From positions 51,902,373 through 51,966,372 of the forward strand of contig NC_057718.1 of the NCBI RefSeq assembly GCF_004010195.1: 64,000 nucleotides of DNA, in the 5' to 3' direction. This document shows positions 8,880-36,499 of this stretch, in pieces. The notes beneath the pieces are model-generated. The model worked only from the letters and a program-made list of their open reading frames with translations. It did not search any database and was not told the DNA's origin. The DNA is from Chiloscyllium plagiosum. Lineage: Eukaryota. A program made the translations under genes and the position numbers. Every line of letters starts with the position of its first letter. Position 1 is the stretch's first letter.

Positions 8880-9428
8880 AACAAGTTACTCAAGTCTATT
8901 AATCATTAAAAAGGTACCACATAAAAGCCTTATTACTTACAAAAATGAAAGTACATGGTATTAAAGGCAATTTTGTGCATGGATGGAGAGAGGGCTTGAG
9001 GATAAAAAGCAAAGATGACGGTTCAATCGATTTTTTTTTCAAACTGGTAAGATGTGTCTGGTAGTGTAGCTTAACAGGATTACTTCAACTCGGATATAAA
9101 AGAAAGGATATCAAAATTTGCGAATGTATCTAATGAGGGTATACCATAAACAGCAAAGAAGAATCTTGGAAGGCAGAGAAAAGCTAGTGAAATTCACTGG
9201 AAAGGCATCAGAAAAATGTTAAATATTATACTTGGGGAAAAAAAAACAGTATTTTAATTATTTAGATTTTTAACAAAAGTGGAGACAGATCCAGGAGTGC
9301 ACATTTGTTGATCTTTAAAGATGGGCACCCAATTAAAGAAAGGCTAAAAGCTACCAAACAGGATTGTGAGTTTTATACACCGAAATACTGACTACAAAAA
9401 TGAGGAAGTGATGTTAAATTTGTATAAC
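8880..9428 (+). mobile_element. Very old CR1 RT fragment
   Basis: aaggtaccacataaaagc (KVPHK), atatcaaaatttgcgaat (ISKFA), gaagtgatgttaaatttgtataa. Confidence 0.55.
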
Positions 9429-9429
9429 C

Positions 9430-9667
9430 ATGATGCGGAGGTGCTGGTGTTGGACTGGGGTGGACAAAGTCAGAAGCTACATGACATCAGGTTATAGTCC
9501 ACCAGGTTTATTTAAAATCATTAAACTGTCGGAGCTCTGCTTCTTCATCAAGTGAAATGGAGGGTGCTTCCCTCCACTTCACGTGACGAAGGGGCAGTGC
9601 TTCGAAAGATTGTGATTTCAAATAAACCTGGTGGACTATAACCTAGTGTTGTGTAACTTCTGACTTT
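9430..9667. mobile_element. Short fold-back Penelope-like derivative (family B) with a hammerhead remnant in each arm
   Basis: Inverted arms aggttatagtccaccaggtttattt / aaataaacctggtggactataacct around a central hairpin. The ggtgttggactggggtggacaaag tail is on the left only. Confidence 0.8.
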
Positions 9668-10039
9668 CTATAAGACAATAGTTACACCACTGGTATTCTA
9701 TTCAAATGTAAAATCAAATGGTGATAACACAGATGGATGCCATTTTGTTCATCATCTCTGCACTAGCTCTTTGTAAGAGCAACTCAGCTTGTCTCACTCC
9801 TTCCCCTTTTCTCTTAAGAATTGGAATTTTGTTTTTTTCCTTATAATCTGGAATCCCACTATGCAAAAGGTTTCAGAACTATGCAAAGTGTAAATTGAAG
9901 GATCACAGGACCAACACATTTATTTTGCACTGCTTTGCAACACAAAGTGTTATACAGGAGTGTTATCAAATAGAATTGAAAGTCAAACTACATTGGGTGA
10001 AATTAGACCCTCTCATCAAAAACTTTTATTTATATAGTA

Positions 10040-13139: not shown

Positions 13140-13208
13140 TTGTATCTCAGAAAGCAAACATGAGAGAAGAATGAACATCTTTATTCAACTCTGCATATGA
13201 TCATCATG

Positions 13209-15327
13209 ATGTGGAGCTGCTGGTGTTGGACTGGGGTGGACAGAATTAAAATTCACACAACACAAGGTTATAGTCCAACAGGTTTATTTGGAAATACTAG
13301 TATACGGATCTCTGTTCCTTCATCAGGTAGCTGTGAAGCAGGATCATAAGACACAGAATTTATAGCAAAAGATCATAGTGTCATGCAACTGATCCAATAT
13401 ATTGAACAAACCTAGATTGCTGTTAGGTCTTTCATCGTTTAGAATGGGTTGCAGGTATCGATTCATTAATATGTAAATCTCAGAACTTCTTTCAAGTCAA
13501 ATTCCTGAGACAACTTAAGGTTTTATAAAACAAAAGGTGACATAGTTAGGCCACCTTTGGAAAATTGCATGCATTTTGGGTCTCCTTCCTATCAGAAGGA
13601 TTTTGTGAAACTTGAAAGGGTTCAGAAAAGATTTACAAGGATGCTGCCAGGGTTGGAGGATTTGAGCTATAGGGAGAGGCTGAATAGGCTGGGGCTATTT
13701 TCTCTAGAGCATCGGAGGCTGAAGGGTGACCTTAAAGAGGTATATAAAATCATGAGGGGCGTGAATAGGATAATCAGACATGGTGTCTTCCCTGGGGAGA
13801 GGGGTCGAGAACTAGAAGGCATAGGTTTAGGGTGAGAGGGGAAAGATATAAAAGGGACCTAAGGAACAATGTTTTCACATAGAGGATAGTGTGTGTATGG
13901 AGTGAGCTGCCAGAAGAAGTTTTGGAGGCTGGTACAATTACAGCATTTAAAAGGCATTTGAATGGATATATAAATAGGTAGGGTTTAAAGGGATATGGAC
14001 CAAGTGCTGGCTAATGGGACTAGATAAGGTTAGGATATCTGGTCGGCATGAACGGGTTGGACCGAAGGGTCTGTTTCCGAGCTGTACATCTCTATGACTC
14101 TCTGATCTCAGTTCAGACAATGCATTAAGTCGGTCTGTATTCCAATCTTGAGTCAGACTGGTTCTAATTCTAAAATAGGAATTTATAAAATGTCACATGG
14201 ATTGACTGCCTGCAGATTGCAGGCTTTTCTGTAAATACAATTCTGCAAATGCAAATTTACCCTATAGACTTATATGTGTATGTGCATGCATGTGAGGGAG
14301 AGAGAGAGAGTGAGCGTGTGTGTGCACGCATGCGCATGTTTCTCACCTGCAAGGATGCCCTGAGGCATGGTACATTAGTGAGACCAAGCAGACGCTATAA
14401 CAATGCATGAATGGACACTGTGCAACAATCATCAGACAGGGATGTTCCCTCCCAGTTGGGGAACACTTCAGCGGTCTGGGGCATTTTACCAAAGATCTTT
14501 GGGTGACCGTCCTCGAAGGCACACTTCAGGAGAACAACAATGCAGATGGGCTGAGCAGAGGCTGATAGCCAACTTCCGTACCCATGAGGATGGCCTTAAC
14601 CCGAACCTTGGGTTCATGTCACACTATAGGTGACCCCACTACACTATACACTCATACATATACACACATACAACACTTTCACATGCTCGCACACTGATGC
14701 AGACCCTCTCTCATATACATGCTGTTTCTCAGACATACACACATACACCCACACACTCTCACCCATGCGCATACTCTCTCACAGGCTTATACTCCGTCAC
14801 ACTCAAGCACACTCTACCAAGCACGCGCACACACACACACACACACACATCTATAGGGTGAAGTTGCACGTGCAGAATTGCATTTACAGCTACATTCTAT
14901 TTTGTTCAAAAAGCACACAACCTGCAGACCGTCAATCCATGTAACATTTTATAAATTCCTGCTTTGGAAACAGAACCAGTTGGACTCAAGATTGGAATAC
15001 AAACAGACTCTAACCTCATACCTTTAATGCATTATCTGAGTTGAGATGTCACCTTTTTAAAGTTATCTTTGGAATATTATTTGAACGAGGCTCTGGGATT
15101 TACATATTAATGAATGGCTACCTCCAATCCATTCTAAAAGATGAAAGACTTAACAACAATCGAGGCTTGTTCAATATATCAGTTGCATGACACTATGATC
15201 TTTTGCAGTAAATTCTGCGTTTTATGATCCTGCCCCAATAGTTACTTGATGAAGGAGCAGCGCTCTGAAAGCTAGTACCCCCAAATAAACCTGTTGGACG
15301 ACAACCTGGTGTTGTGTGATTTTTAAC
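13209..15327. mobile_element. Penelope-like element (family B), 5'-truncated, with long inverted pseudo-LTR and internal GIY-YIG fragment
   Basis: Left arm 13236-14335 (interrupted by CR1) is the reverse complement of about 14820-15327. tggtacattagtgagaccaagcagacgcta gives WYISETKQTL (YIGET motif), followed by AEQRLIANFRTHEDGLN. Degenerate TSD tgatcatcatg / tgattatcgtg. Confidence 0.85.
13544..14103 (+). mobile_element. CR1 (HER1-like) LINE 3' fragment inserted in the PLE arm
   Basis: LERVQKRFTRMLPGLEDLSYRERLNRLGLFSLE; tail ggaccgaagggtctgtttcc...ctatgactc. Confidence 0.92.
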
Positions 15328-15957
15328 TGATTATCGTGGAGAAGTGAACCCAACTTAATGTCAGAGAGCCCCCGCAGCATGAAGTTGACTTTTCAAAAAT
15401 GTCTGCACACCAGAGTATTACACAAGGATTTTCTAGCAGTTTAGTTTCATTTTCAATCATGACACAAACCTATTTCCCCAGGCAGCCACTGGGTGCCATT
15501 GTCAGTGAGTGGGGCATGGGAGGGAGTAAACTTATAGTTAAATGTTCATGGCTATATGTTAATGGTGAAAAGAGGTATTGTAAAAGGACTTGCAGTTTTA
15601 TGGACTAACTTGGGGTAAAAAGATGTAATGTAATGGGTAGAATACCTAAATTAAAGGATAAACAGTGGCCATGTGCTATGTCATAGCAATGTTAGAACAC
15701 ATGGAACTGAAACTTGAGTTTACAGGGCTCCAGATAATATGACCTCTCCTATCCCTATCAAGCACTGAACACAGTAATGTACAATAAGACCTTATTGCAA
15801 TTCATTCACAAGCAAATAGGCCTCACACTGCTACAATTTTAGGGATAGAGCAGTACTTTACAAAGACAAAATGATGGTGGGTATAGTTCTTCAGAAGGGC
15901 TTTGCTAATGAAAACTTTCGGGGGGGGGGGGGAATAGCTTAACTCTTTAGAAGTTAT

Positions 15958-25922: not shown

Positions 25923-28279
25923 CATTTGCTACGGAAAGAAGAAACAAAATCCTAAACAAGGAGTTGAAATGCTTCTACTTTGTAATATTGGCCAAGATAT
26001 TGACCTGCCTCTGTTAATGTGAATCTGAAACCAACTATCCTGCATGAGGCGGCCATCTAGCTCTTCTTTTCATTTGTCCTCAGTGCCTCTAATAAAAGAG
26101 CTGATGGCAACTGCACCCTTTGGTGGGAAGTGATCTGGAATAATTTATATATGTTATCATTAATGACTGGCCATTAAAATTCTATACTACCATGAAATGT
26201 TATACTTAGATATGCAGAGGAAGATAATTTGATTTTTTTTAGGGTTATTTATAATATCGGATGTCTAACAACCAATCTGTGATAACTGCTTTTATACAAA
26301 TAGCCAAGGTAAGAGTCATACTTTATGTTTCTAACACTAATTACATCAACCCATTAAATCACTTAAGCAATGAATTTGGTTATGAGGTAATAAAAATAAG
26401 CTGTGCTGGATAAATGGCATTCTGCTAAAGAAATTTATAAATGGCTCCATTAATTTTAGGACCCTAACACATACCTTAACTATATCCGTTAAATATTCCT
26501 GAGAACTATTTAAGTCGCTCACCACCACAGGATTAGATCTTAATCACGTACCATGCCGAAGACATTTCATATCGACATGCAAATAACCTTATGAAGTTAA
26601 CTGGGACACATATTTCTAATTTTCTTGAAACAATGGTCAGTATGAATTAATGAATGAGAACCAGTTTGAGTGGTTTGTGTTCACCAAATGTGATGAATAG
26701 CTATACAAATGTAAAATCATAAAAGAATTATGGAACAAGAAAGGAACTTCAATCATCTAAGTACATACAGTCATAATACCCTGAGGTCTCCGCTTTGCAG
26801 CTTCCAATTGTTTCTTAAATATTTTGAAACTCACTGTCTGTGCTGTTTTATCTGCAAGTCCATATTGATCATTCTCTGTCTGAAGAAAAGTATTCTGACA
26901 TCAGCCCTGAATTTTCATTTTATGAGTTTGAAGCTACTCTTACAGTTTAGTTCAAAAATGTTTCCAGAATTATCAGTTCTATATTGTTTCCTGTCATATA
27001 CCTGAACAAATTTACCTCTCAATCCCCTTGTTTCAAGCCTGAAAAACTCTGTCATAGCCTACTCTCTTCTCATAAATCATTCTTTTTTTGCTAAGGCTCA
27101 AATCATACCACAGAAACTTAGGAATAGGAATAGGCTACTCAGCCCCTTGAACCTGTTCCACCATTTAGTGAGATTGTGGTTGGTCTGTGGTATAACTCCA
27201 TAAACCTGCCTTTGACCCATATCCATTAATACTTGTGCTTATCAAAAATGTATCTGTCTCAAGTTTAAAATGAACAAACGATACCACACAACCAGCATTT
27301 CACTAAATCTTTGCAACTTTTCAAGGCAGTAGTTTCCATATTACAGTAAGTAAAGACAGTCTGAAGGTCTCAAAGCCTCTCACACAGCTACTCAGATGGT
27401 TAATTCTGTCAGTAAAGTGGGCATGAGTAGGGTGGCATGTAGGTGGGTATGTCTGTAAAGTGGCAGATGGTTGAGGGTGAAGTGGGCAGGTTAGATCTTC
27501 AGTGGTTGAGTAGGTAGGATGCTTAACGCATAAGGAGGTAGGATGGCAGATGAGTACAAGATAAGGTGGCTAGTGGGTGGAGCATTGGACAAGTAAAGGG
27601 CAGATAAGTGAGTGAGAGATTAGGTAACAGGTGAATGTGCGGGTGCAGTGGCAGAAGGTAAGCAGGTAAGGTGGCAGGTGGTAGATGGTTTGCAGGTACG
27701 TCGAGAGTAGGATAGCAACTAAATCAAGTCATAGAATGGCAGTTAACAAATAGCAGGGTGACAAATAGGTAGCCAATGGGTGTGTGAAGATGTACAGTGA
27801 CAATTAAGTCAGTGAAGTGTCAGAGGAGATAGAGGTATACATGATGTGATTGGTTATTGTGAGTGATTGTGGCTCAGTTTTATCATTAGCCAGGAATTAC
27901 AGCAAAGCATAATCTCTCCAACTTTTTCTGGCTAGCCTACAAAGTAAAGAGATGAATAAACTGCAAGTGCTGGAATCCAAAGTAGATCAACAAGAGGCTG
28001 GAAGAACACAGCAAGCCAGGCAGCATCAAGAGGGGGAGAACAGTTAAGGTTAAGTCAGAGCCCTATGAAATGTCGAACTCTAACACAGAATTTGAGACAT
28101 TTTTTCAGGATTCCGAATTTCTTACAATTGTCCATAGGAATTTTAAAATTGACAGGCAATTCCTGAGTGGTTAGCGCTTTGGGAGCTCTGAAAAGTTCTG
28201 ATATGCATCTTTCAATGTATGTCCAGAGAACAAGAGACCTAGACCCATGTATTTTCAGTACAGCTCATTCAGTGCCTAC

Positions 28280-28885
28280 AAAAACAGAAAGTGCTGGAAA
28301 AAGTCAGCAGGTCTGACAGCCTCTGTTGAGAGGAATCAGAGTCAATGTTTCAGCTTGAGTGATCCTTCCTCAGAACTGATGGTAGCTAGGAAGATGTTGG
28401 TTTACATGCAGATGACAGGGTGGGGGGAGGGGGTAAGTAGTAAATGATAGGTGTGGATAGAGCCACAGGAGAGCAAAGAGCAGTTGGACTGATAAAGCAG
28501 TGGATCATGATCTGGCTAGGAGGGTGAATAGTTTTTAATGAGGACTGTTAGCAGCTAACAATGTGTCACTAGAATGCAGTACACAAAATTGTGTGAAGTG
28601 CAGGTCGTGAACCTGTGTAGTCAAGGTAACTGTGGGAGGCAGTAGGTTTGTAGTGGATGTTGGTGGCCAGCCTTTCCCCAGAAATAGAAACAGTGATGTC
28701 AAAGAAGGAAAGGGAGGAATCTGGGATGGACCAGATGACAGTGAGTAGCTACTGTCAGTTCTGAGGAAGGGTGATTCAACCCGAAATGTTAACTCTGATT
28801 TCTCTCCACAGTTGCTACCAGACATGCTGAGCTTTTCCAGCAATTTTTGTTTTTGTTTTCGATTTGCAGCATCTGCAGTTCATTC
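28280..28885. mobile_element. Fold-back PLE derivative (family C)
   Basis: 28280-28387 is the inverted copy of about 28747-28855. Hammerhead motif in both arms; gatttgcagcatctgcagtt tail on the right only. Confidence 0.8.
28757..28794 (+). ncRNA. Minimal hammerhead motif (family C)
   Basis: aguu-CUGAGGA-a-GGGU-gauuca-ACCC-GAAAU-GUU^aacu; stem I aguu/aacu. Confidence 0.6.
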
Positions 28886-29792
28886 TGTTTGTACATTCAG
28901 TACATATGTGATTTGTTGGCCAGCATTCACCAGGATCTGACCTACTTGTCGGTTTTTACAACATTATTTGTAACATTTGTGCAAGAAATAAGGCTTCCAC
29001 TGATAAGTACATTTAAAATTATTAAATGCCTCTAATATTCCTTTATAAATGTATAATTCTGTATCAATGGTAGGAAACACTGAAATTATCACACTGTGTC
29101 TTGAAGTATCGAAAGAAAGCTGAGACAGATGTTATTGTATTAAAGATTAGATCACAGATCAATCTACTTCTATAAATTTAAAAATCTCCAGGTGAAGCTT
29201 GCACAGATATATACACAAGTTAAAGAAAGGTAAAGCAGCTGGAAATTGCAAGTACCCTTTAATAACACAGAAGTATCAGATGAAAAGCCAGGAGTTGAAT
29301 CACTGGCATTTATGTTTTGTTTTATAAGCTTTTTGATTGTTCTGAAATACAGCTTCAGGACTTATGGTCTGCCTCATCAGGAACTATTGTTCTTTGTTTT
29401 GACACTCAGAGAACAAATCTGACAACTAGGGACATCACAAAAGCAGGCTTTGAATCACATCAAGATGATAAGATACATCCTGTAGACTTGGCCCTCCACA
29501 CATACATTATTTGTTTAAATTATTGTGTTTTATAATAGCTTGGCTTTGCTCATTTCAAAATTCATGAAATTCAAAAAAAAACTTATCAATTAAAAGTCTG
29601 ATATGAATATGTTCTAAATATAGGCTGAAGTTAAAAAAAAGTCTTAAATAAAGGTTGAGCAGTTTGTATTCTTCAGAAACCATAATTTAGGTTATATTCT
29701 TGAGTTTACTCCACATTCAGCTTGACAAGCGAACAGTTTGACTCAAAGGTGAATATCAGAATTACTCATGTCACAATTAACAACACGTTAAA

Positions 29793-30204: not shown

Positions 30205-31195
30205 NNNNNNNNNNNNNNNNNNNNNNNNNNNNNNNNNNNNNNNNNNNNNNNNNNNNNNNNNNNNNNNNNNNNNNNNNNNNNNNNNNNNNNNNNNNNNNNN
30301 NNNNNNNNNNNNNNNNNNNNNNNNNNNNNNNNNNNNNNNNNNNNNNNNNNNNNNNNNNNNNNNNNNNNNNNNNNNNNNNNNNNNNNNNNNNNNNNNNNNN
30401 NNNNNNNNNNNNNNNNNNNNNNNNNNNNNNNNNNNNNNNNNNNNNNNNNNNNNNNNNNNNNNNNNNNNNNNNNNNNNNNNNNNNNNNNNNNNNNNNNNNN
30501 NNNNNNNNNNNNNNNNNNNNNNNNNNNNNNNNNNNNNNNNNNNNNNNNNNNNNNNNNNNNNNNNNNNNNNNNNNNNNNNNNNNNNNNNNNNNNNNNNNNN
30601 NNNNNNNNNNNNNNNNNNNNNNNNNNNNNNNNNNNNNNNNNNNNNNNNNNNNNNNNNNNNNNNNNNNNNNNNNNNNNNNNNNNNNNNNNNNNNNNNNNNN
30701 NNNNNNNNNNNNNNNNNNNNNNNNNNNNNNNNNNNNNNNNNNNNNNNNNNNNNNNNNNNNNNNNNNNNNNNNNNNNNNNNNNNNNNNNNNNNNNNNNNNN
30801 NNNNNNNNNNNNNNNNNNNNNNNNNNNNNNNNNNNNNNNNNNNNNNNNNNNNNNNNNNNNNNNNNNNNNNNNNNNNNNNNNNNNNNNNNNNNNNNNNNNN
30901 NNNNNNNNNNNNNNNNNNNNNNNNNNNNNNNNNNNNNNNNNNNNNNNNNNNNNNNNNNNNNNNNNNNNNNNNNNNNNNNNNNNNNNNNNNNNNNNNNNNN
31001 NNNNNNNNNNNNNNNNNNNNNNNNNNNNNNNNNNNNNNNNNNNNNNNNNNNNNNNNNNNNNNNNNNNNNNNNNNNNNNNNNNNNNNNNNNNNNNNNNNNN
31101 NNNNNNNNNNNNNNNNNNNNNNNNNNNNNNNNNNNNNNNNNNNNNNNNNNNNNNNNNNNNNNNNNNNNNNNNNNNNNNNNNNNNNNNNNNNNNNN
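30205..31195. other. Assembly gap (N run)
   Basis: Run of N. Confidence 1.
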
Positions 31196-32560
31196 TGACT
31201 GCATTGGCGCCACCTCGTGCTCCCACGAGGAAGTTGAGCAATTCATCAACTTCACCAACACATTCCACCCTAACCTTAAACTTACCTGGACCATCTCTGA
31301 CACCTCCCTTCCCTTCCTGTACCTCTCCATCTCCATTAATAATGGCAGACTTGACTGACATTTTTTACAAACCCACCGACTCCCACAGCTACCTAGATTA
31401 CACCTCTTCCCACCCTACCTCTTGCAAAAATTCCATCCCATATTCCCAATTCCTCCGCCTCTGCCGTATCTGCTCCCAGAAGGACTAGTTCCACCATAGA
31501 ATACACTAGATGGTCTCCTTCTTTAGAGACCGCAATTTCCCTTCCCACGTGGTTAAAGATGCCTTCCAACACATCTCGTCCACATCCCGCACCTCCGCCC
31601 TCACACCACACCCCTCCAACCGTAACAAGGACAGAATGCCCCTGGTGCTCACCTTCCACCCTACCAACCTTCGCATAAACCAAATCATCTGCCGACATTT
31701 CCGCCATATCCAAAAAGACCCCACCACCAGGGATATATTTCCCTCCCCACCCCTTTCCGCCTTCTGCAAAGACCGTTCCCACCGTGACTACCTGGTCAGG
31801 TCCACGCCCCACTACAACCCACCATCCCATCCTGGCACCTTCCCCTGCCACCGCAGGAATTGCAAAACCTGCGCCCACACCTCCTTCCTCACCTCCAGCC
31901 AAGGCCATAAAGGAGCTTTCCACATCCATCAAAGTTTTACCTGCACATCCACCAATATCATTTATTGTATCCGTTGCTCCCGATGCAGTCTCCTCTACAT
32001 TGGGTAGACTGGACGCCTCCGAGCAGAGCACTTTAGGGAACATCTCCGGGACACCCGCACCAATCTACCACACCGCCCCGTGGCCCAACATTTCAACTCC
32101 CCCTCCCACTCTGCCGAGGACATGGAGGTCATGGGCCTCCTTCGCCGCCGCTCCCTCACCACCAGACGCCTGGAAGAAGAACGCCTCATCTTCCACTCGG
32201 AACACTTCATGGCATCAATGTGGACTTCAACAGTTTCCTCATTTCCCCTTCCCCCACCTCACTTTAATTCCAAACTTCCAGCTCAGCACTGTCTCCATGA
32301 CTTGTCCTACCTGCCTATCTTCTTTTCCACCTATCCACTCCACCCTCCTCCTTGACCTATCACCTTCATCCCCTCCCCCCCACACCTATTGTACTCTATG
32401 CTACTTTCTCCCCACCCCCACCCTCCTCTAGCTTATCTCTCCACCCTTCAGGCTCTTTGCCTTTATTCCTGATGAAGGGCTTTTGCCCGAAACGTCGATT
32501 TTACTGCTCCTTGGATGCAGCCTGAACTGCTGTGCTCTTCCAGCACCACTAATCCAGAAT
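31196..32560 (+). mobile_element. Penelope-like element (family A; Cys-rich linker suggests Neptune type): RT C-terminus, GIY-YIG endonuclease and 3' end, pseudogenised
   Basis: DCIG...FHPNLKLTW...LPFL, FYKPTDSHSYL, SIPYSQFLRL, CHRRNCKTC, NIIYCIRCSRCSLLYIG*TGR, RRLEEERLIF; stops present. Confidence 0.92.
32465..32500 (+). ncRNA. Minimal hammerhead ribozyme motif at the PLE family A 3' end
   Basis: CUGAUGA-a-GGGC-uuuu-GCCC-GAAAC-GUC^ga. Core is perfect; stem I is very short. Confidence 0.75.
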
Positions 32561-33055: not shown

Positions 33056-33679
33056 CAAACAGGTAAAGTTCCCAGGCTGGTTTCTGGTTCATGTTCAGAT
33101 TACTAAGATAGACTGAGTAAATGGTAGGAGTGATATAGTTTGCCATCCATTGACTTTATCTGGAAGTTGCACTGTGCAAACATCGAGGAAGCTTGAATAG
33201 CCTATAGACATTCACAATCAATGCTCACAAATTAATTATGATACTTGAATGAATGACCACAGAACAACAAAGCAGGATCAAGAAGAACATTGATTAAAGA
33301 AAAAAAAAGAAGTGAATTAGGTATTATAATTAAATCATGCTCTGTGCAGTTTATAATGTCAAATGATCTCATGCTCAATGAATCTTGTTTAATTCACTTT
33401 GCAATTTATAGTGGTCATGAATCAGCAGCTCAGATAATCACCTGCAAGATGAAATATGATTTTATCATTATTGGATTTCCAATAATTGGAAGATTCTTTG
33501 CAAAAATAGCTTGTTCATACATTCACACGTATAGAATATTTGTGAATCAAAAGGCCTTCAAACCATTTTTAGGTCATTTGAAAATCAATCTTGGATCAAA
33601 CACATTGATTAAACACACAACTGTGACTTTCTTTTGTTGTCATATTGAATGGAATTATAGCATATTGACATGTTGAAAA

Positions 33680-33914
33680 GGAGAAAGTGCGGACTGCAGA
33701 TGCTGGAGATCAGAGTTGAAAGCTATGGTGCTGGAAAAGCACAATCGCTCAGTCGGCATCCAAGGAGCAGAATAGTCGACATTTTGAGCCTCAGCTCTTT
33801 TCTTCATCAGGAATGAGCTCATTGCTGATGAAGAGCTCATGCTTGAAACATCGACTCTCATGCTCCTTGGATGCCGCCTGACCGGTTGTGCTTTTCCAGC
33901 ACCACACTTTTTGA
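33680..33914. mobile_element. Mini fold-back PLE derivative (family A): two hammerheads back to back
   Basis: Arms meet at the palindrome aatgagctcatt. Right arm: ctgatgaagagctcatgcttgaaacatcgac. Tail on the left only. Decayed TSD tgacatgttgaaaa / tgatgtgctgaaaa. Confidence 0.8.
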
Positions 33915-35658
33915 CGACTGATGTGCTGAAAACTCCAGAACCAAGCAGTACATAGGGTGCTTTGAAGTCTGGACGTGTTCAGTCTAATCTCTGACTCCTC
34001 AGCAGGGTAAGGGGCAGGTCTGAGCCCTGAAACAGGAGGGAGGCATCCAACCACTGGGTCAGGGCATGAGACAGTGCTTTGCCTGAGAGACAGGACAGCT
34101 TATGGAGATGAGCTTCAGCAGATGAAAGAAGCATTGCTCCCTCTGGTCTACAAGGAATTCACCTTAAGGCTGTTCTTGTCTCACAATAGCTGTTGGATTT
34201 CCCAAAGCCCGGAGACTTGACTCATCACATTTAAACCAGAAAAGCAAGTTAAAGATGAAAACCTAATTTTAGTAGCCTTTTGGCGATGGCCTGTAAGGCT
34301 GGCAAAATGACACTGCAAGGCACGGGGATAACTGATATGCTCACAACACTATTCTAATTCAGCAAATGGCAGAAACTTGGCAAATTGGCCATCTGCTAGG
34401 AACTCAGTTAATTGAATAACAAAGTTTAATTTGCTCTCTTTTGAAGGGGAAGTGGGGCAGGGGTGGGGAGATTGGAGCGATGCAGGAGCTGTCACTGTGA
34501 AGAGAGATCATCTAGTGAAACCTGGCAGTCTGTCAGTGGGCTGTGTGAGGCAGGTATAGCTTTCCTGTTTGTGGGCACATCAGCCATTGAAACACATTCT
34601 CCTCACAGCTGCAGCCTCAGCAATGACCCGCAGCCTCAGCACAAGGTGACTGGCATGGCAGCTCTCAAAGAAAGCCAGTTGTCCTACGTTCCTCAACTTC
34701 CTTTTCTTGTCCACTTCAACCCCACTTGTATCCAAATCTACTCCCTCACTGATGATACAATTTCTCCCATTCTCCTTGAATCTGTCTAGCAGCAATTTCT
34801 TCCATCTAATGTGGCAATAAAGGATGTCAATATAATGCAGAAGTGTAACTGTACAGTTATGCTTTAAAAAGGTGCTGCTTCTGATGATAAAATCATATCT
34901 TTGCATTATCTATTGTCATGAAACTGATGCCATATACTCAAATGTCATGATTCAGGTTTAGAAATTACTCAGGAAATTGATATATTAATGGAATGCATTC
35001 ATAGGTTCTACGTTAATGTGAATTTTAATCATGTGCAATATTGTGAATGCAATTTAACATAAAGACACAGCAGAGAGCTGTGCAAATCGTGTCACATCAC
35101 CAGTCTTTTTACACTATATTGCAAATGCTCTCCTTTCAAGAGTTTATCCAATTAACTTCTGAAAGGAACAACTGGATCTGCTTCCACTATCCTTTTAGGC
35201 ATTGCAGATCATGAAAAAGGTATTTCTCCCTCATGTTTCATTTGACTGATTTGCCAATGTCTTTAATCCTGTCTCCTTCAATGAATTAATTACCTCTATA
35301 ATTAACTTTTGAGGAAACGTTGGACAGGCTACACTTGAATCAGCTGGAGTTTACAACAGTAAGAAGCAATTTGTTTGAAACACACAATTGAAAGATCAAA
35401 TTTCCTTTTAACCTTCTTCACTCTGAGAAGGAGAATACAATACCAGGTTCTCAATGTAACAAAAGTTCCTGATGTTAGTATTGTTCATTTAATTGTTAGG
35501 AAACCTTCCTGCATCCACTCTCAGGCCATGACACCCCTCCTAAAATAAATGCGTTGCCCAGACTGCACACTATCAGCTGTATTTTTACAGAGGCATGGAG
35601 CTTCATGGAGGAGTGAAAACCGCAGCTAGGACCATATATTGATATTCCCAATAACATT

Positions 35659-36211
35659 ATTTGGAGATGCGGACTGGGGTGTACAAAGTTAAAAATCACA
35701 CAACACTAGGTTACAGTCTAACAAGTTTAATTGAAAGCACTGGCTTTCAGTGCGCTGCTCCTTCATCAGGTGGTTGTGGGCACGTCAGCCATTGAAGCAC
35801 CTTCTCCTCACAGCTGCAGCCTCAGCACAAGGTGACTGGGGGCATGGCAGCTCTCAAAGGCAGCCAATTGTCTTACATTCCTCAACTTCCTTTTCTTGTC
35901 CACTTCAACCCCACTTGTATCCAAATCTACTCCCTCACGGATGATACAATTTCTCCCATTCTTCTTGAATCTGTCTTGCAACAATTTCTTCCATCTAATA
36001 TGGTACCTGATGAAGGCTGCCTTTGAGAGCTGCCATGCCCCCAGTCACCTTGTGCTGAGGCTGCGGGTCATTGCTGAGGCTGCAGCTGTGAGGGGAAGGT
36101 GCTTCAATGGCTGACGTGCCCACAACCACCTGATGAAGGAGCAGCGCACTGAAAGCTAGTGCTTTCAATTAAACTTGTTTGACTGTAACCTAGTGTTGTG
36201 TGATTTTTAAC
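35659..36211. mobile_element. Fold-back PLE derivative (family B) carrying a captured copy of 34569-34815
   Basis: Inverted arms 35688-35865 and 36015-36211; 12-bp TSD cccaataacatt at 35647-35658 and 36211-36222. Confidence 0.9.
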
Positions 36212-36499
36212 CCAATAACATTGCCAGGATTCTGATTTTTACTAGTTGCATTTCATGATTCAGGCTTGTACAGATTGTGACCTTGCATTCTGCAACTCTG
36301 ACCTTTCCAGGTCTGTTACTGGAGATGGGTAATTTGCAATTCTCATGGAGTCATGTCAACTATTAATGGATCCATAATGGTTCATGGTATCTCAGATGTG
36401 CCATGAACTACAGTTTTGATGAGGGAACGCTTTGCAAGGTAAGGTCAAAAGGTCTCACCAATGACCCAACACTGAGCTACGCCGCTGCAATCACCTGGC

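What the first reader, a model, noticed from the sequence alone, without database searches (positions are those of the whole stretch)
34569..36222. Ribozyme-tipped palindrome that captured about 240 bp of neighbouring intron via microhomology switches
Seen: between 12-bp TSDs (cccaataacatt) the order is PLE end (inverted), a copy of 34569-34815 (35774-36005), a 12-nt PLE hammerhead fragment acctgatgaagg (36005-36016), an inverted copy of the first part of the captured sequence, then the PLE end. The first junction shares ttgtgg between the family sequence (caggtagttgtgg at about 38655) and the donor (34569-34574). The inner junction shares gg. The donor lies about 1 kb from the insertion site. 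Inference: the PLE RT or repair synthesis jumped from element to local DNA or RNA, back to the element, then folded back. That would be a PLE-driven local duplication route that creates a roughly 180-bp hairpin in the host pre-mRNA.
Basis: partly seen in the sequence, partly recalled or inferred. Interest (0 to 1): 0.72.

Follow-up and report, generated by a model that had tools for sequence, protein, structure and literature searches.

The report
Penelope palindrome holding copied nearby intron
A mirror-image insertion of a likely Penelope-type jumping gene in a likely neurexin intron holds a copy of 246 bases from 1.1 kb away, likely picked up by template switching, and its two arms have likely been copied onto each other since three related species split; a clean case built from known parts.

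Summary
The structure is real. It has a 12-bp target-site duplication, a head-to-head pair of hammerhead-bearing Penelope-like ends (a 29-nt tail on the left only), a 94%-identical copy of 34569-34814, a 13-nt element fragment and a partial inverted copy. Contigs show the captured DNA at single-locus depth, so it is not a dispersed repeat. The insertion is present in three organisms 3-4% apart; no empty site was seen and no contig spans it whole. New point: the arms are 98% alike although the donor is 94%. Both arms share a 3-base expansion that the donor lacks and, by inference from contig ends, the relatives lack too. The arms were therefore likely homogenised after speciation. Best reading (0.5): two primings at the family's two start sites, a 6-nt microhomology jump to a nearby template, then a fold-back. 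A later repair patch at the palindrome centre (0.25) is the main rival. DNA versus nascent neurexin RNA as template is unresolved. Host capture between Penelope ends, LINE-1 templated insertions and inverted-repeat homogenisation are each published. The hammerheads look degraded. New variant of a known kind; interest 0.33.

The parts
34569..34814 (+). Donor: single-locus intronic DNA, 246 bases, starting 1078 bases before the insertion
   Evidence: low depth
35647..35658 (+). Left target-site duplication CCCAATAACATT
35659..35687 (-). 'Tail': 29 bases present on the left element end only (end at +108 from the hammerhead ATG, counted from the corrected TSD, versus +79 on the right)
   Evidence: alignment; tail concept from PMC11167929, PMC8557442
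35688..35779 (-). Left Penelope-like end with minimal hammerhead motif (CTGATGA...GAAA), degraded
35774..35779 (+). TTGTGG microhomology shared by the family end (copy at 38662-38667) and donor 34569-34574
35774..36003 (+). Direct copy of the donor (230 bases; 19-base deletion at about 35816, 3-base G expansion at 35838-35842)
35866..36014 (.). 149-base loop between the arms
36004..36016 (+). 13-nt element fragment TACCTGATGAAGG; keeps the family T where both arms have C
36015..36125 (-). Inverted copy of donor 34569-34676, entered at a GG microhomology; carries the same 3-base expansion (36038-36042)
36120..36211 (+). Right Penelope-like end with hammerhead motif, no tail
36211..36222 (+). 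Right target-site duplication (first base also fits the element)
51420..51752 (-). Neurexin-alpha exon (second laminin-G domain); further exons at about 47180 and 46005-46160, also minus; the insertion lies downstream, likely in the next intron
   Evidence: (E 6e-94 to neurexin-1-alpha 3qcw_A)
38539..38667 (-). Family copy used as reference for the junctions

Best explanation
This is a TSD-flanked head-to-head pair of likely Penelope-like ends holding a copy of single-locus DNA from 1.1 kb away, likely captured during insertion and likely kept palindromic by later arm-to-arm copying. Steps. (1, inferred) The element enzyme made a 12-base staggered cut and primed cDNA from both ends at the family's two start sites: left with tail, right without. 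(2, junction shown, agent inferred) The left cDNA's 3' end, TTGTGG, annealed to the same hexamer at 34569 and copied 246 bases towards the insertion site. The template has bottom-strand polarity, so it could be bottom-strand DNA (about 0.6) or nascent neurexin pre-mRNA (about 0.4). (3, inferred) This end was joined without microhomology to the 5'-truncated right cDNA; 36004-36016 is its relic. (4, inferred) Thirteen bases on, the strand slipped at GG, folded back onto its own captured sequence and copied back through the left arm before rejoining the right end, giving a 178-bp stem with a 149-base loop. (5, shown) The insertion is older than the split of organisms A, B and C. (6, inferred, about 0.8) Since then, intrastrand template switching or gene conversion has copied changes between the arms. 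The hammerheads are likely inert passengers. A hairpin in neurexin pre-mRNA is predicted; no function is shown.
For: Anatomy. The one-sided tail and a predicted cut 26 nt after the ATG match the anole element, which cuts and extends both strands from two start sites (PMC11167929). The tail-less end recurs at 15327 and near 9665. Single-locus depth and presence in three organisms: (left junction bridged in X2, X7, X10; captured-to-fragment join in X2, X7, X11; right end reached 28-30 bases into the arm in X2, X7). Homogenisation: arm-arm 3 of 178 versus donor-copy 13 of 227 substitutions, Fisher p 0.03, with A-B 3.2% and A-C 4.0%. The arms share 10 differences from the majority of three other copies in 92 columns, against 1 left-only, 0 right-only and 1 site differing in both. 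Both arms carry a 5-G run where the donors of A, B and C align without a gap. C's right-arm contig is 3 letters short in 36021-36102. Of 1940 model-by-change trials, only 'both B arms lack the 3 bases' plus one extra change fits all three B contig ends. The same 31-mer logic reproduces 5 of 6 compared A contig ends exactly and 1 within 2 bases.
Against: The order of steps 1-4 cannot be read from one fossil. The arms are about 11% from the window's family majority but only about 3% per branch from the donor, which would fit a capture later than the insertion. The post-split copying rests on contig ends, not displayed letters: 76 difference rows and 2 indel rows were hidden, and assumed B's left arm has A's 19-base deletion and needed one unlisted change. 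The arms still differ by 3 substitutions and the 19-base deletion. The other 4 head-to-head pairs in the window have arms only 81-85% alike (ages unknown). One A contig (record 19) ran 31 bases past the predicted end, so contig ends are not always plain 31-mer boundaries. No contig spans the whole insertion; the right junction was not seen in C; no empty site was seen. Pfam found nothing in the family's putative endonuclease remnant.
Confidence: 0.5

Rival explanations
1. Later repair patch: an ordinary head-to-head Penelope palindrome came first; its fragile centre broke later and host repair copied the nearby donor in at TTGTGG, then folded back. The element enzyme played no part in the capture.
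For: The arms differ from the window's family majority at 10-12 of 92 columns, far more than the roughly 3% per branch implied by donor versus copy. Bare head-to-head pairs are common (4 others in the window; many joints near 35775-35779 to 36120-36124 in all four runs). Templated and inverted insertions at breaks are known (PMC11724301, search listing).
Against: The TSD is 12 of 12 identical, likelier for a younger insertion (inference). A majority of three worn copies is a poor stand-in for the true source subfamily. The capture sits exactly where the two cDNAs would meet.
Confidence: 0.25
2. One reading: one strand ran from the element to the donor, returned to the element by folding onto its own cDNA, folded back again at GG and ended at the right flank; no second priming.
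For: Both arms have the identical element-donor junction, simplest if one was copied from the other. Self-priming was proposed for head-to-head Penelope palindromes (PMC3846280 passages).
Against: The return junction at 36003/36004 has no microhomology. The fold-back would have to stop at +79, the family's usual tail-less end, unless the endonuclease trims it there.
Confidence: 0.15
3. Chimeric RNA: a since-lost element end at the donor's edge gave a read-through neurexin-sense transcript, and both primings copied this one RNA to different lengths.
For: Explains identical junctions and the polarity (gene on minus strand). Chimeric transcripts are a known source of LINE-1 chimeras (PMC13174262 passages).
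Against: No element at 34568 in A, B or C (donor contigs X2 record 17, X7 record 26 and X10 record 2 run across it). It needs re-insertion 1.1 kb from its source and a further switch for the 13-nt fragment.
Confidence: 0.07
4. Dispersed composite repeat or assembly artefact.
For: Palindromes trouble assemblies (PMC8557442 passage); no single contig spans the whole.
Against: Captured DNA is at single-locus depth in 4 of 4 runs. X2 records 18, 19, 20 and 24 match the window without a difference, and junctions recur in two other organisms.
Confidence: 0.03

Closest known systems
Canonical endonuclease-bearing Penelope-like insertion unit (Craig et al. 2021, PMC8557442; Frangieh et al. 2024, PMC11167929)
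   Same: Inverted 5'-truncated copy, 30-40-base tail at one end only, hammerhead at the pLTR-ORF junction with an ATG at stem II and the cut 26 nt on, AT-rich target, TSD.
   Different: No ORF here; the centre holds host DNA, and part of that DNA is duplicated in both arms.
Host DNA captured between Penelope pLTRs in Adineta vaga (Arkhipova et al. 2013, PMC3846280, passages)
   Same: Unrelated non-coding sequence between solo pLTRs, flanked by TSDs; palindromes at inverted junctions.
   Different: In the passages read, donors are not placed near the insertion site and no microhomology path is given for the captures; here the donor is 1.1 kb away and each junction can be read.
LINE-1 templated insertions and twin priming with switching (bioRxiv 10.1101/2024.08.27.596794; PMC11702581, passages)
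   Same: The growing cDNA leaves the element RNA, copies under about 250 bases of nearby genome and returns; two primings give inverted products.
   Different: LINE-1 templates were typically within 15 bp of the site; here 0.8-1.1 kb. Germline and fixed rather than somatic; a different enzyme class.
Inverted-repeat arm homogenisation by template switching (Abraham and Hazkani-Covo 2021, PMC8604942, abstract; PMC8794818, search listing)
   Same: Changes are copied between the arms of an imperfect inverted repeat after it forms.
   Different: Those cases are short repeats in yeast genes or RNA stems; here a 178-bp retroelement-made stem with a 149-base loop in a vertebrate intron.

Membership tests
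Penelope-like element insertion unit | Inverted (head-to-head) terminal repeats | tested here: met
   35688-35779 minus and 36120-36211 plus, 90 of 92 identical
Penelope-like element insertion unit | 30-40-base tail on one end only | tested here: met
   29 bases on the left, shorter than the copies at 13.2 kb and 38.5 kb because of an internal gap; absent on the right
Penelope-like element insertion unit | Short target-site duplication | tested here: met
   12 of 12; not confirmed by an empty site (none seen)
Penelope-like element insertion unit | Hammerhead motif in the pLTR | tested here: met
   core motifs at 35769 (minus) and 36130 (plus); ATG-to-cut spacing of 26 nt as in the anole element; no Rfam hit at gathering score
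Penelope-like element insertion unit | Family linked to a reverse transcriptase plus GIY-YIG endonuclease ORF | tested here: inconclusive
   A longer family copy in the window has a broken frame that looks GIY-YIG-like by eye (motif recalled). Pfam gave no credible family for 3 of 3 pieces, and no homology-search result was obtained, so the link rests on recall.
Minimal (dimer-type) hammerhead ribozyme | Intact helix II with G10.1-C11.1 pair, short palindromic helix III, intact cleavage triplet | tested here: not met
   Both arms carry two changes in helix II; the left also has a U-to-C change in the triplet. Neither folds helix II on its own, though the copy at 38.6 kb also did not. Features from PMC4209133 passages.
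Minimal (dimer-type) hammerhead ribozyme | Self-cleavage | not testable with these tools
   needs an in vitro assay
Templated insertion made during retrotransposition | Inserted DNA copies a single nearby locus, with microhomology at the switch, inside the TSD | tested here: met
Templated insertion made during retrotransposition | Capture simultaneous with the insertion | tested here: inconclusive
   perfect TSD for; excess distance of the arms from the family majority against; all three organisms carry both
Inverted-repeat homogenisation | A derived change present in both arms but absent from the source and from relatives' arms | tested here: met
   3-base expansion in both arms of A shown; absence in B and C inferred from contig ends and gap counts

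The most novel reading that the evidence does not exclude
Double-primed Penelope insertion is a regular local-duplication machine in sharks. The free cDNA end borrows templates about 1 kb away, far beyond LINE-1's usual reach and possibly from nascent pre-mRNA, builds long intronic hairpins out of host sequence, and these hairpins then stay near-perfect across species splits by arm-to-arm copying, supplying long-lived double-stranded RNA in genes such as neurexin.
Probability: 0.25. Interest if true: 0.6.

Novelty: new variant of a known kind. Interest (0 to 1): 0.33.

Why it matters
The steps after first-strand synthesis in Penelope retrotransposition are stated to be unvalidated (PMC11167929). 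A fossil in which every junction can be read constrains them: it fits two primings and an exposed 3' end able to use 6-nt microhomology 1 kb away. If such captures are frequent, this very abundant family is a source of local duplications and host-derived hairpins. The likely post-speciation copying between arms warns that arm identity cannot date these palindromes. As a single locus it is a neat example, not a new system.

Tried and rejected
Whole-genome search: no genome is held for this window, so uniqueness rests on contig depth at 85% likeness or more. Rfam: no hit at gathering scores. Pfam on three element-frame pieces: nothing credible. Empty site: none among the 15 joints shown of 378, and all three organisms carry the insertion. 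I first misread the neurexin strand and concluded that pre-mRNA was excluded as template; reversed this, so polarity does not separate DNA from RNA. Interiors of the other 4 head-to-head pairs: 0 of 4 match single-copy DNA in the window. For organism B, 'right arm only lacks the 3 bases', 'point change in one arm', 'point change in both arms' and 'same as A' were all rejected. GC-biased conversion: the captured paired part leans GC in the arms (5:0 versus 1:6 in the loop, p 0.015, post hoc), but the element part does not, so it is not claimed. Two further sites (36079, 36099), where B and C share a base and A's right arm equals its left arm and donor, fit conversion but also an A,(B,C) tree; not counted as proof. 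PMC9977147 passages held nothing on capture. Two look-ups of earlier findings returned nothing. Expression, hairpin formation and editing were not tested: no RNA run held the stretch among 19 holders.

Full report
Observation. A 12-base duplication (35647-35658, 36211-36222) flanks 552 bases. In order: an element end on the minus strand (35659-35779); a direct copy of 34569-34814 (35774-36003); a 13-base element fragment (36004-36016); an inverted copy of 34569-34676 (36015-36125); and the element end on the plus strand (36120-36211). The first junction shares TTGTGG between the family copy at 38662-38667 and the donor, the inner junction shares GG, and the join between captured DNA and the fragment shares nothing. 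A 12-mer match has a chance of about 1e-7 per place and the hexamer 2e-4 at a fixed junction; five such hexamers lie within 2 kb either side. The arms pair over 178 bases around a 149-base loop; the RNA folds at -387 kcal/mol (z -32) on plus and -380 on minus.

Setting. An exon at 51420-51752 on the minus strand matches neurexin-1-alpha (E 6e-94), with further exons near 47180 and 46005-46160. No later neurexin exon was found below 46000 by short recalled motifs or among the 35 ORFs of 110 residues or more, so the site likely lies in a long intron (inference). Because the gene is on the minus strand, the captured copy, which has the polarity of the element cDNA, is complementary to the pre-mRNA. 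Bottom-strand DNA and nascent RNA are both possible templates.

The element. Both ends carry a CTGATGA...GAAA core. The ATG inside it lies 26 nt before the predicted cut, as reported for the anole element PAc, which cuts and extends both target strands and starts reverse transcription at two sites whose interval is the one-sided 'tail' (PMC11167929; parts 1-2 of 4 and passages read). Here the left end runs to +108 with a tail and the right to +79 without. The pairs at 9.4-9.7 kb and 13.2-15.3 kb have the same asymmetry. An inverted 5'-truncated copy with a one-sided tail is the standard Penelope insertion unit (PMC8557442 passages). The link of this family to a GIY-YIG ORF stayed inconclusive: a broken frame looks right by eye, but Pfam found nothing credible in 3 of 3 pieces. 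The two hammerheads have two changes in helix II, the left also one in the cleavage triplet, and each is buried in the long stem; they are likely inert. Rfam gave no hit.

Other genomes. Nineteen of 24 listed runs hold the stretch, from three coded organisms; I laid 4 of them, all contigs. Depth over the donor is 1.75-7.7 in X2 against about 3 in the flanks and 2e5-7e5 over the element ends, and the other three runs agree. The tool warns that contig depth is no copy number, but five orders of magnitude exclude a dispersed repeat at 85% likeness or more. Loose ends at 36120 show family sequence, not the captured piece. The left junction is bridged in X2, X7 and X10, and the captured-to-fragment join in X2, X7 and X11. 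The GG junction is fully bridged in X11 and with 28 bases on one side in X2 and X7. The right end is reached 28-30 bases into the arm in X2 and X7, just under the tool's 31-base rule, and was not seen in C. No listed piece spans the whole and no empty site appeared (15 of 378 joints and 32 of 79,817 pieces were shown). A-B distance is 3.2% and A-C 4.0% from the listed single-copy records. The insertion is therefore older than these splits.

The arms are too alike. Donor and copy differ at 13 of 227 bases, the arms at 3 of 178 (Fisher p 0.03; 0.046 counting indels). Against the majority of three other family copies the arms share 10 differences in 92 columns, with 1 left-only, 0 right-only and 1 differing in both; some may be subfamily variants. 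The sharpest sign is a run of five G in both arms where the donor has two. X2 records 19 and 20 cover both runs with no difference, at their edges. The donors of B and C align across the run without a gap. C's right-arm contig (X11 record 14) is three letters short within 36021-36102. B's contigs stop on either side of the run, with 5 and 6 loose letters. Counting single-copy 31-mers reproduces 5 of 6 compared A contig ends exactly and one within 2 bases; a seventh (record 19) ran 31 bases further. Over five models and every single extra change in 129 positions (1940 trials), only 'both B arms lack the three bases', with one extra change at 34629 or its mirror 36065, fits all three B ends; B's left arm was assumed to carry A's 19-base deletion. 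So the expansion likely arose once in A's line after the split and was copied to the other arm. Against this: the letters were not displayed (76 and 2 rows hidden), 3 substitutions and the 19-base deletion remain, and the other four pairs in the window have arms only 81-85% alike.

Mechanism. My preferred path (0.5) is two primings, a jump of the left cDNA to the donor at TTGTGG, a blunt join to the truncated right cDNA, whose first 13 bases survive, and a fold-back at GG that copied the left arm into the right. It explains the tail-less right end, the missing microhomology at the second junction and the identical element-donor junction in both arms. The fragment keeps the family T where both arms have C, which fits later homogenisation but does not separate the paths. 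The main rival (0.25) is a later repair patch at the centre of an ordinary palindrome, because the arms are about 11% from the local family majority but about 3% per branch from the donor; the perfect TSD leans the other way.

What is known. Capture of unrelated non-coding DNA between solo Penelope repeats with TSDs, and palindromic junctions, are described in a rotifer (PMC3846280 passages). LINE-1 makes templated insertions under 250 bases, typically from within 15 bp of the site (bioRxiv 10.1101/2024.08.27.596794 passages; PMC11702581 passages), and chimeras with other RNAs (PMC13174262 passages). Template switching homogenises inverted-repeat arms (PMC8604942 abstract; PMC8794818 search listing). 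Four searches showed no paper on locally templated capture with readable junctions, or on arm homogenisation, in Penelope insertions. The library lacks most subscription papers and I read no supplements. Earlier unchecked notes on this genome report several similar captures with donors 0.4-3 kb away; I did not test them, and they are leads only. They suggest recurrence, which lowers the surprise of this locus and raises the value of a genome-wide count.

Verdict. Real, old and locally templated; a new variant of a known kind, with likely post-speciation arm-to-arm copying as the added point. Interest 0.33.

Noticed in passing
window 9419-9673, 13198-15335, 28253-28905, 33671-33932: Four other head-to-head hammerhead-bearing pairs, arms 81-85% alike, candidate TSDs of 8-10 bases with one mismatch each (weak); none holds single-copy local DNA. 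The 9.4-kb and 13-15-kb pairs have the tail on the left only.
   Followed up: partly
window 35688-35779 and 36120-36211: The arms are about 11% from the local family majority but the donor implies about 3% per branch; unexplained (divergent source subfamily, or an insertion older than the capture).
   Followed up: partly
window 35774-36003 versus 34569-34814: In the paired part all 5 donor-copy substitutions have G/C in the arms; in the loop 6 of 7 have A/T in the copy (p 0.015, post hoc). Could mean faster decay in the loop.
   Followed up: partly
window 36182-36224: 5 of the 15 differences in organism B's contig (X7 record 32) were not listed and may lie in the element end or TSD, an excess over the flank; positions not visible.
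   Followed up: no
window 35301-35377: A short stretch at about ten times single-copy depth in all four runs: a small low-copy repeat between donor and insertion.
   Followed up: no
window 31196-32550 and 41090-42230: Remnants of another hammerhead-ended element with reverse-transcriptase- and endonuclease-like frames (by eye, no Pfam hit), each next to an assembly gap (30205-31195, 41627-41843).
   Followed up: no
window about 47150-47200, minus strand: Small neurexin exon between the two larger exons, likely an alternatively spliced insert (recalled label).
   Followed up: no
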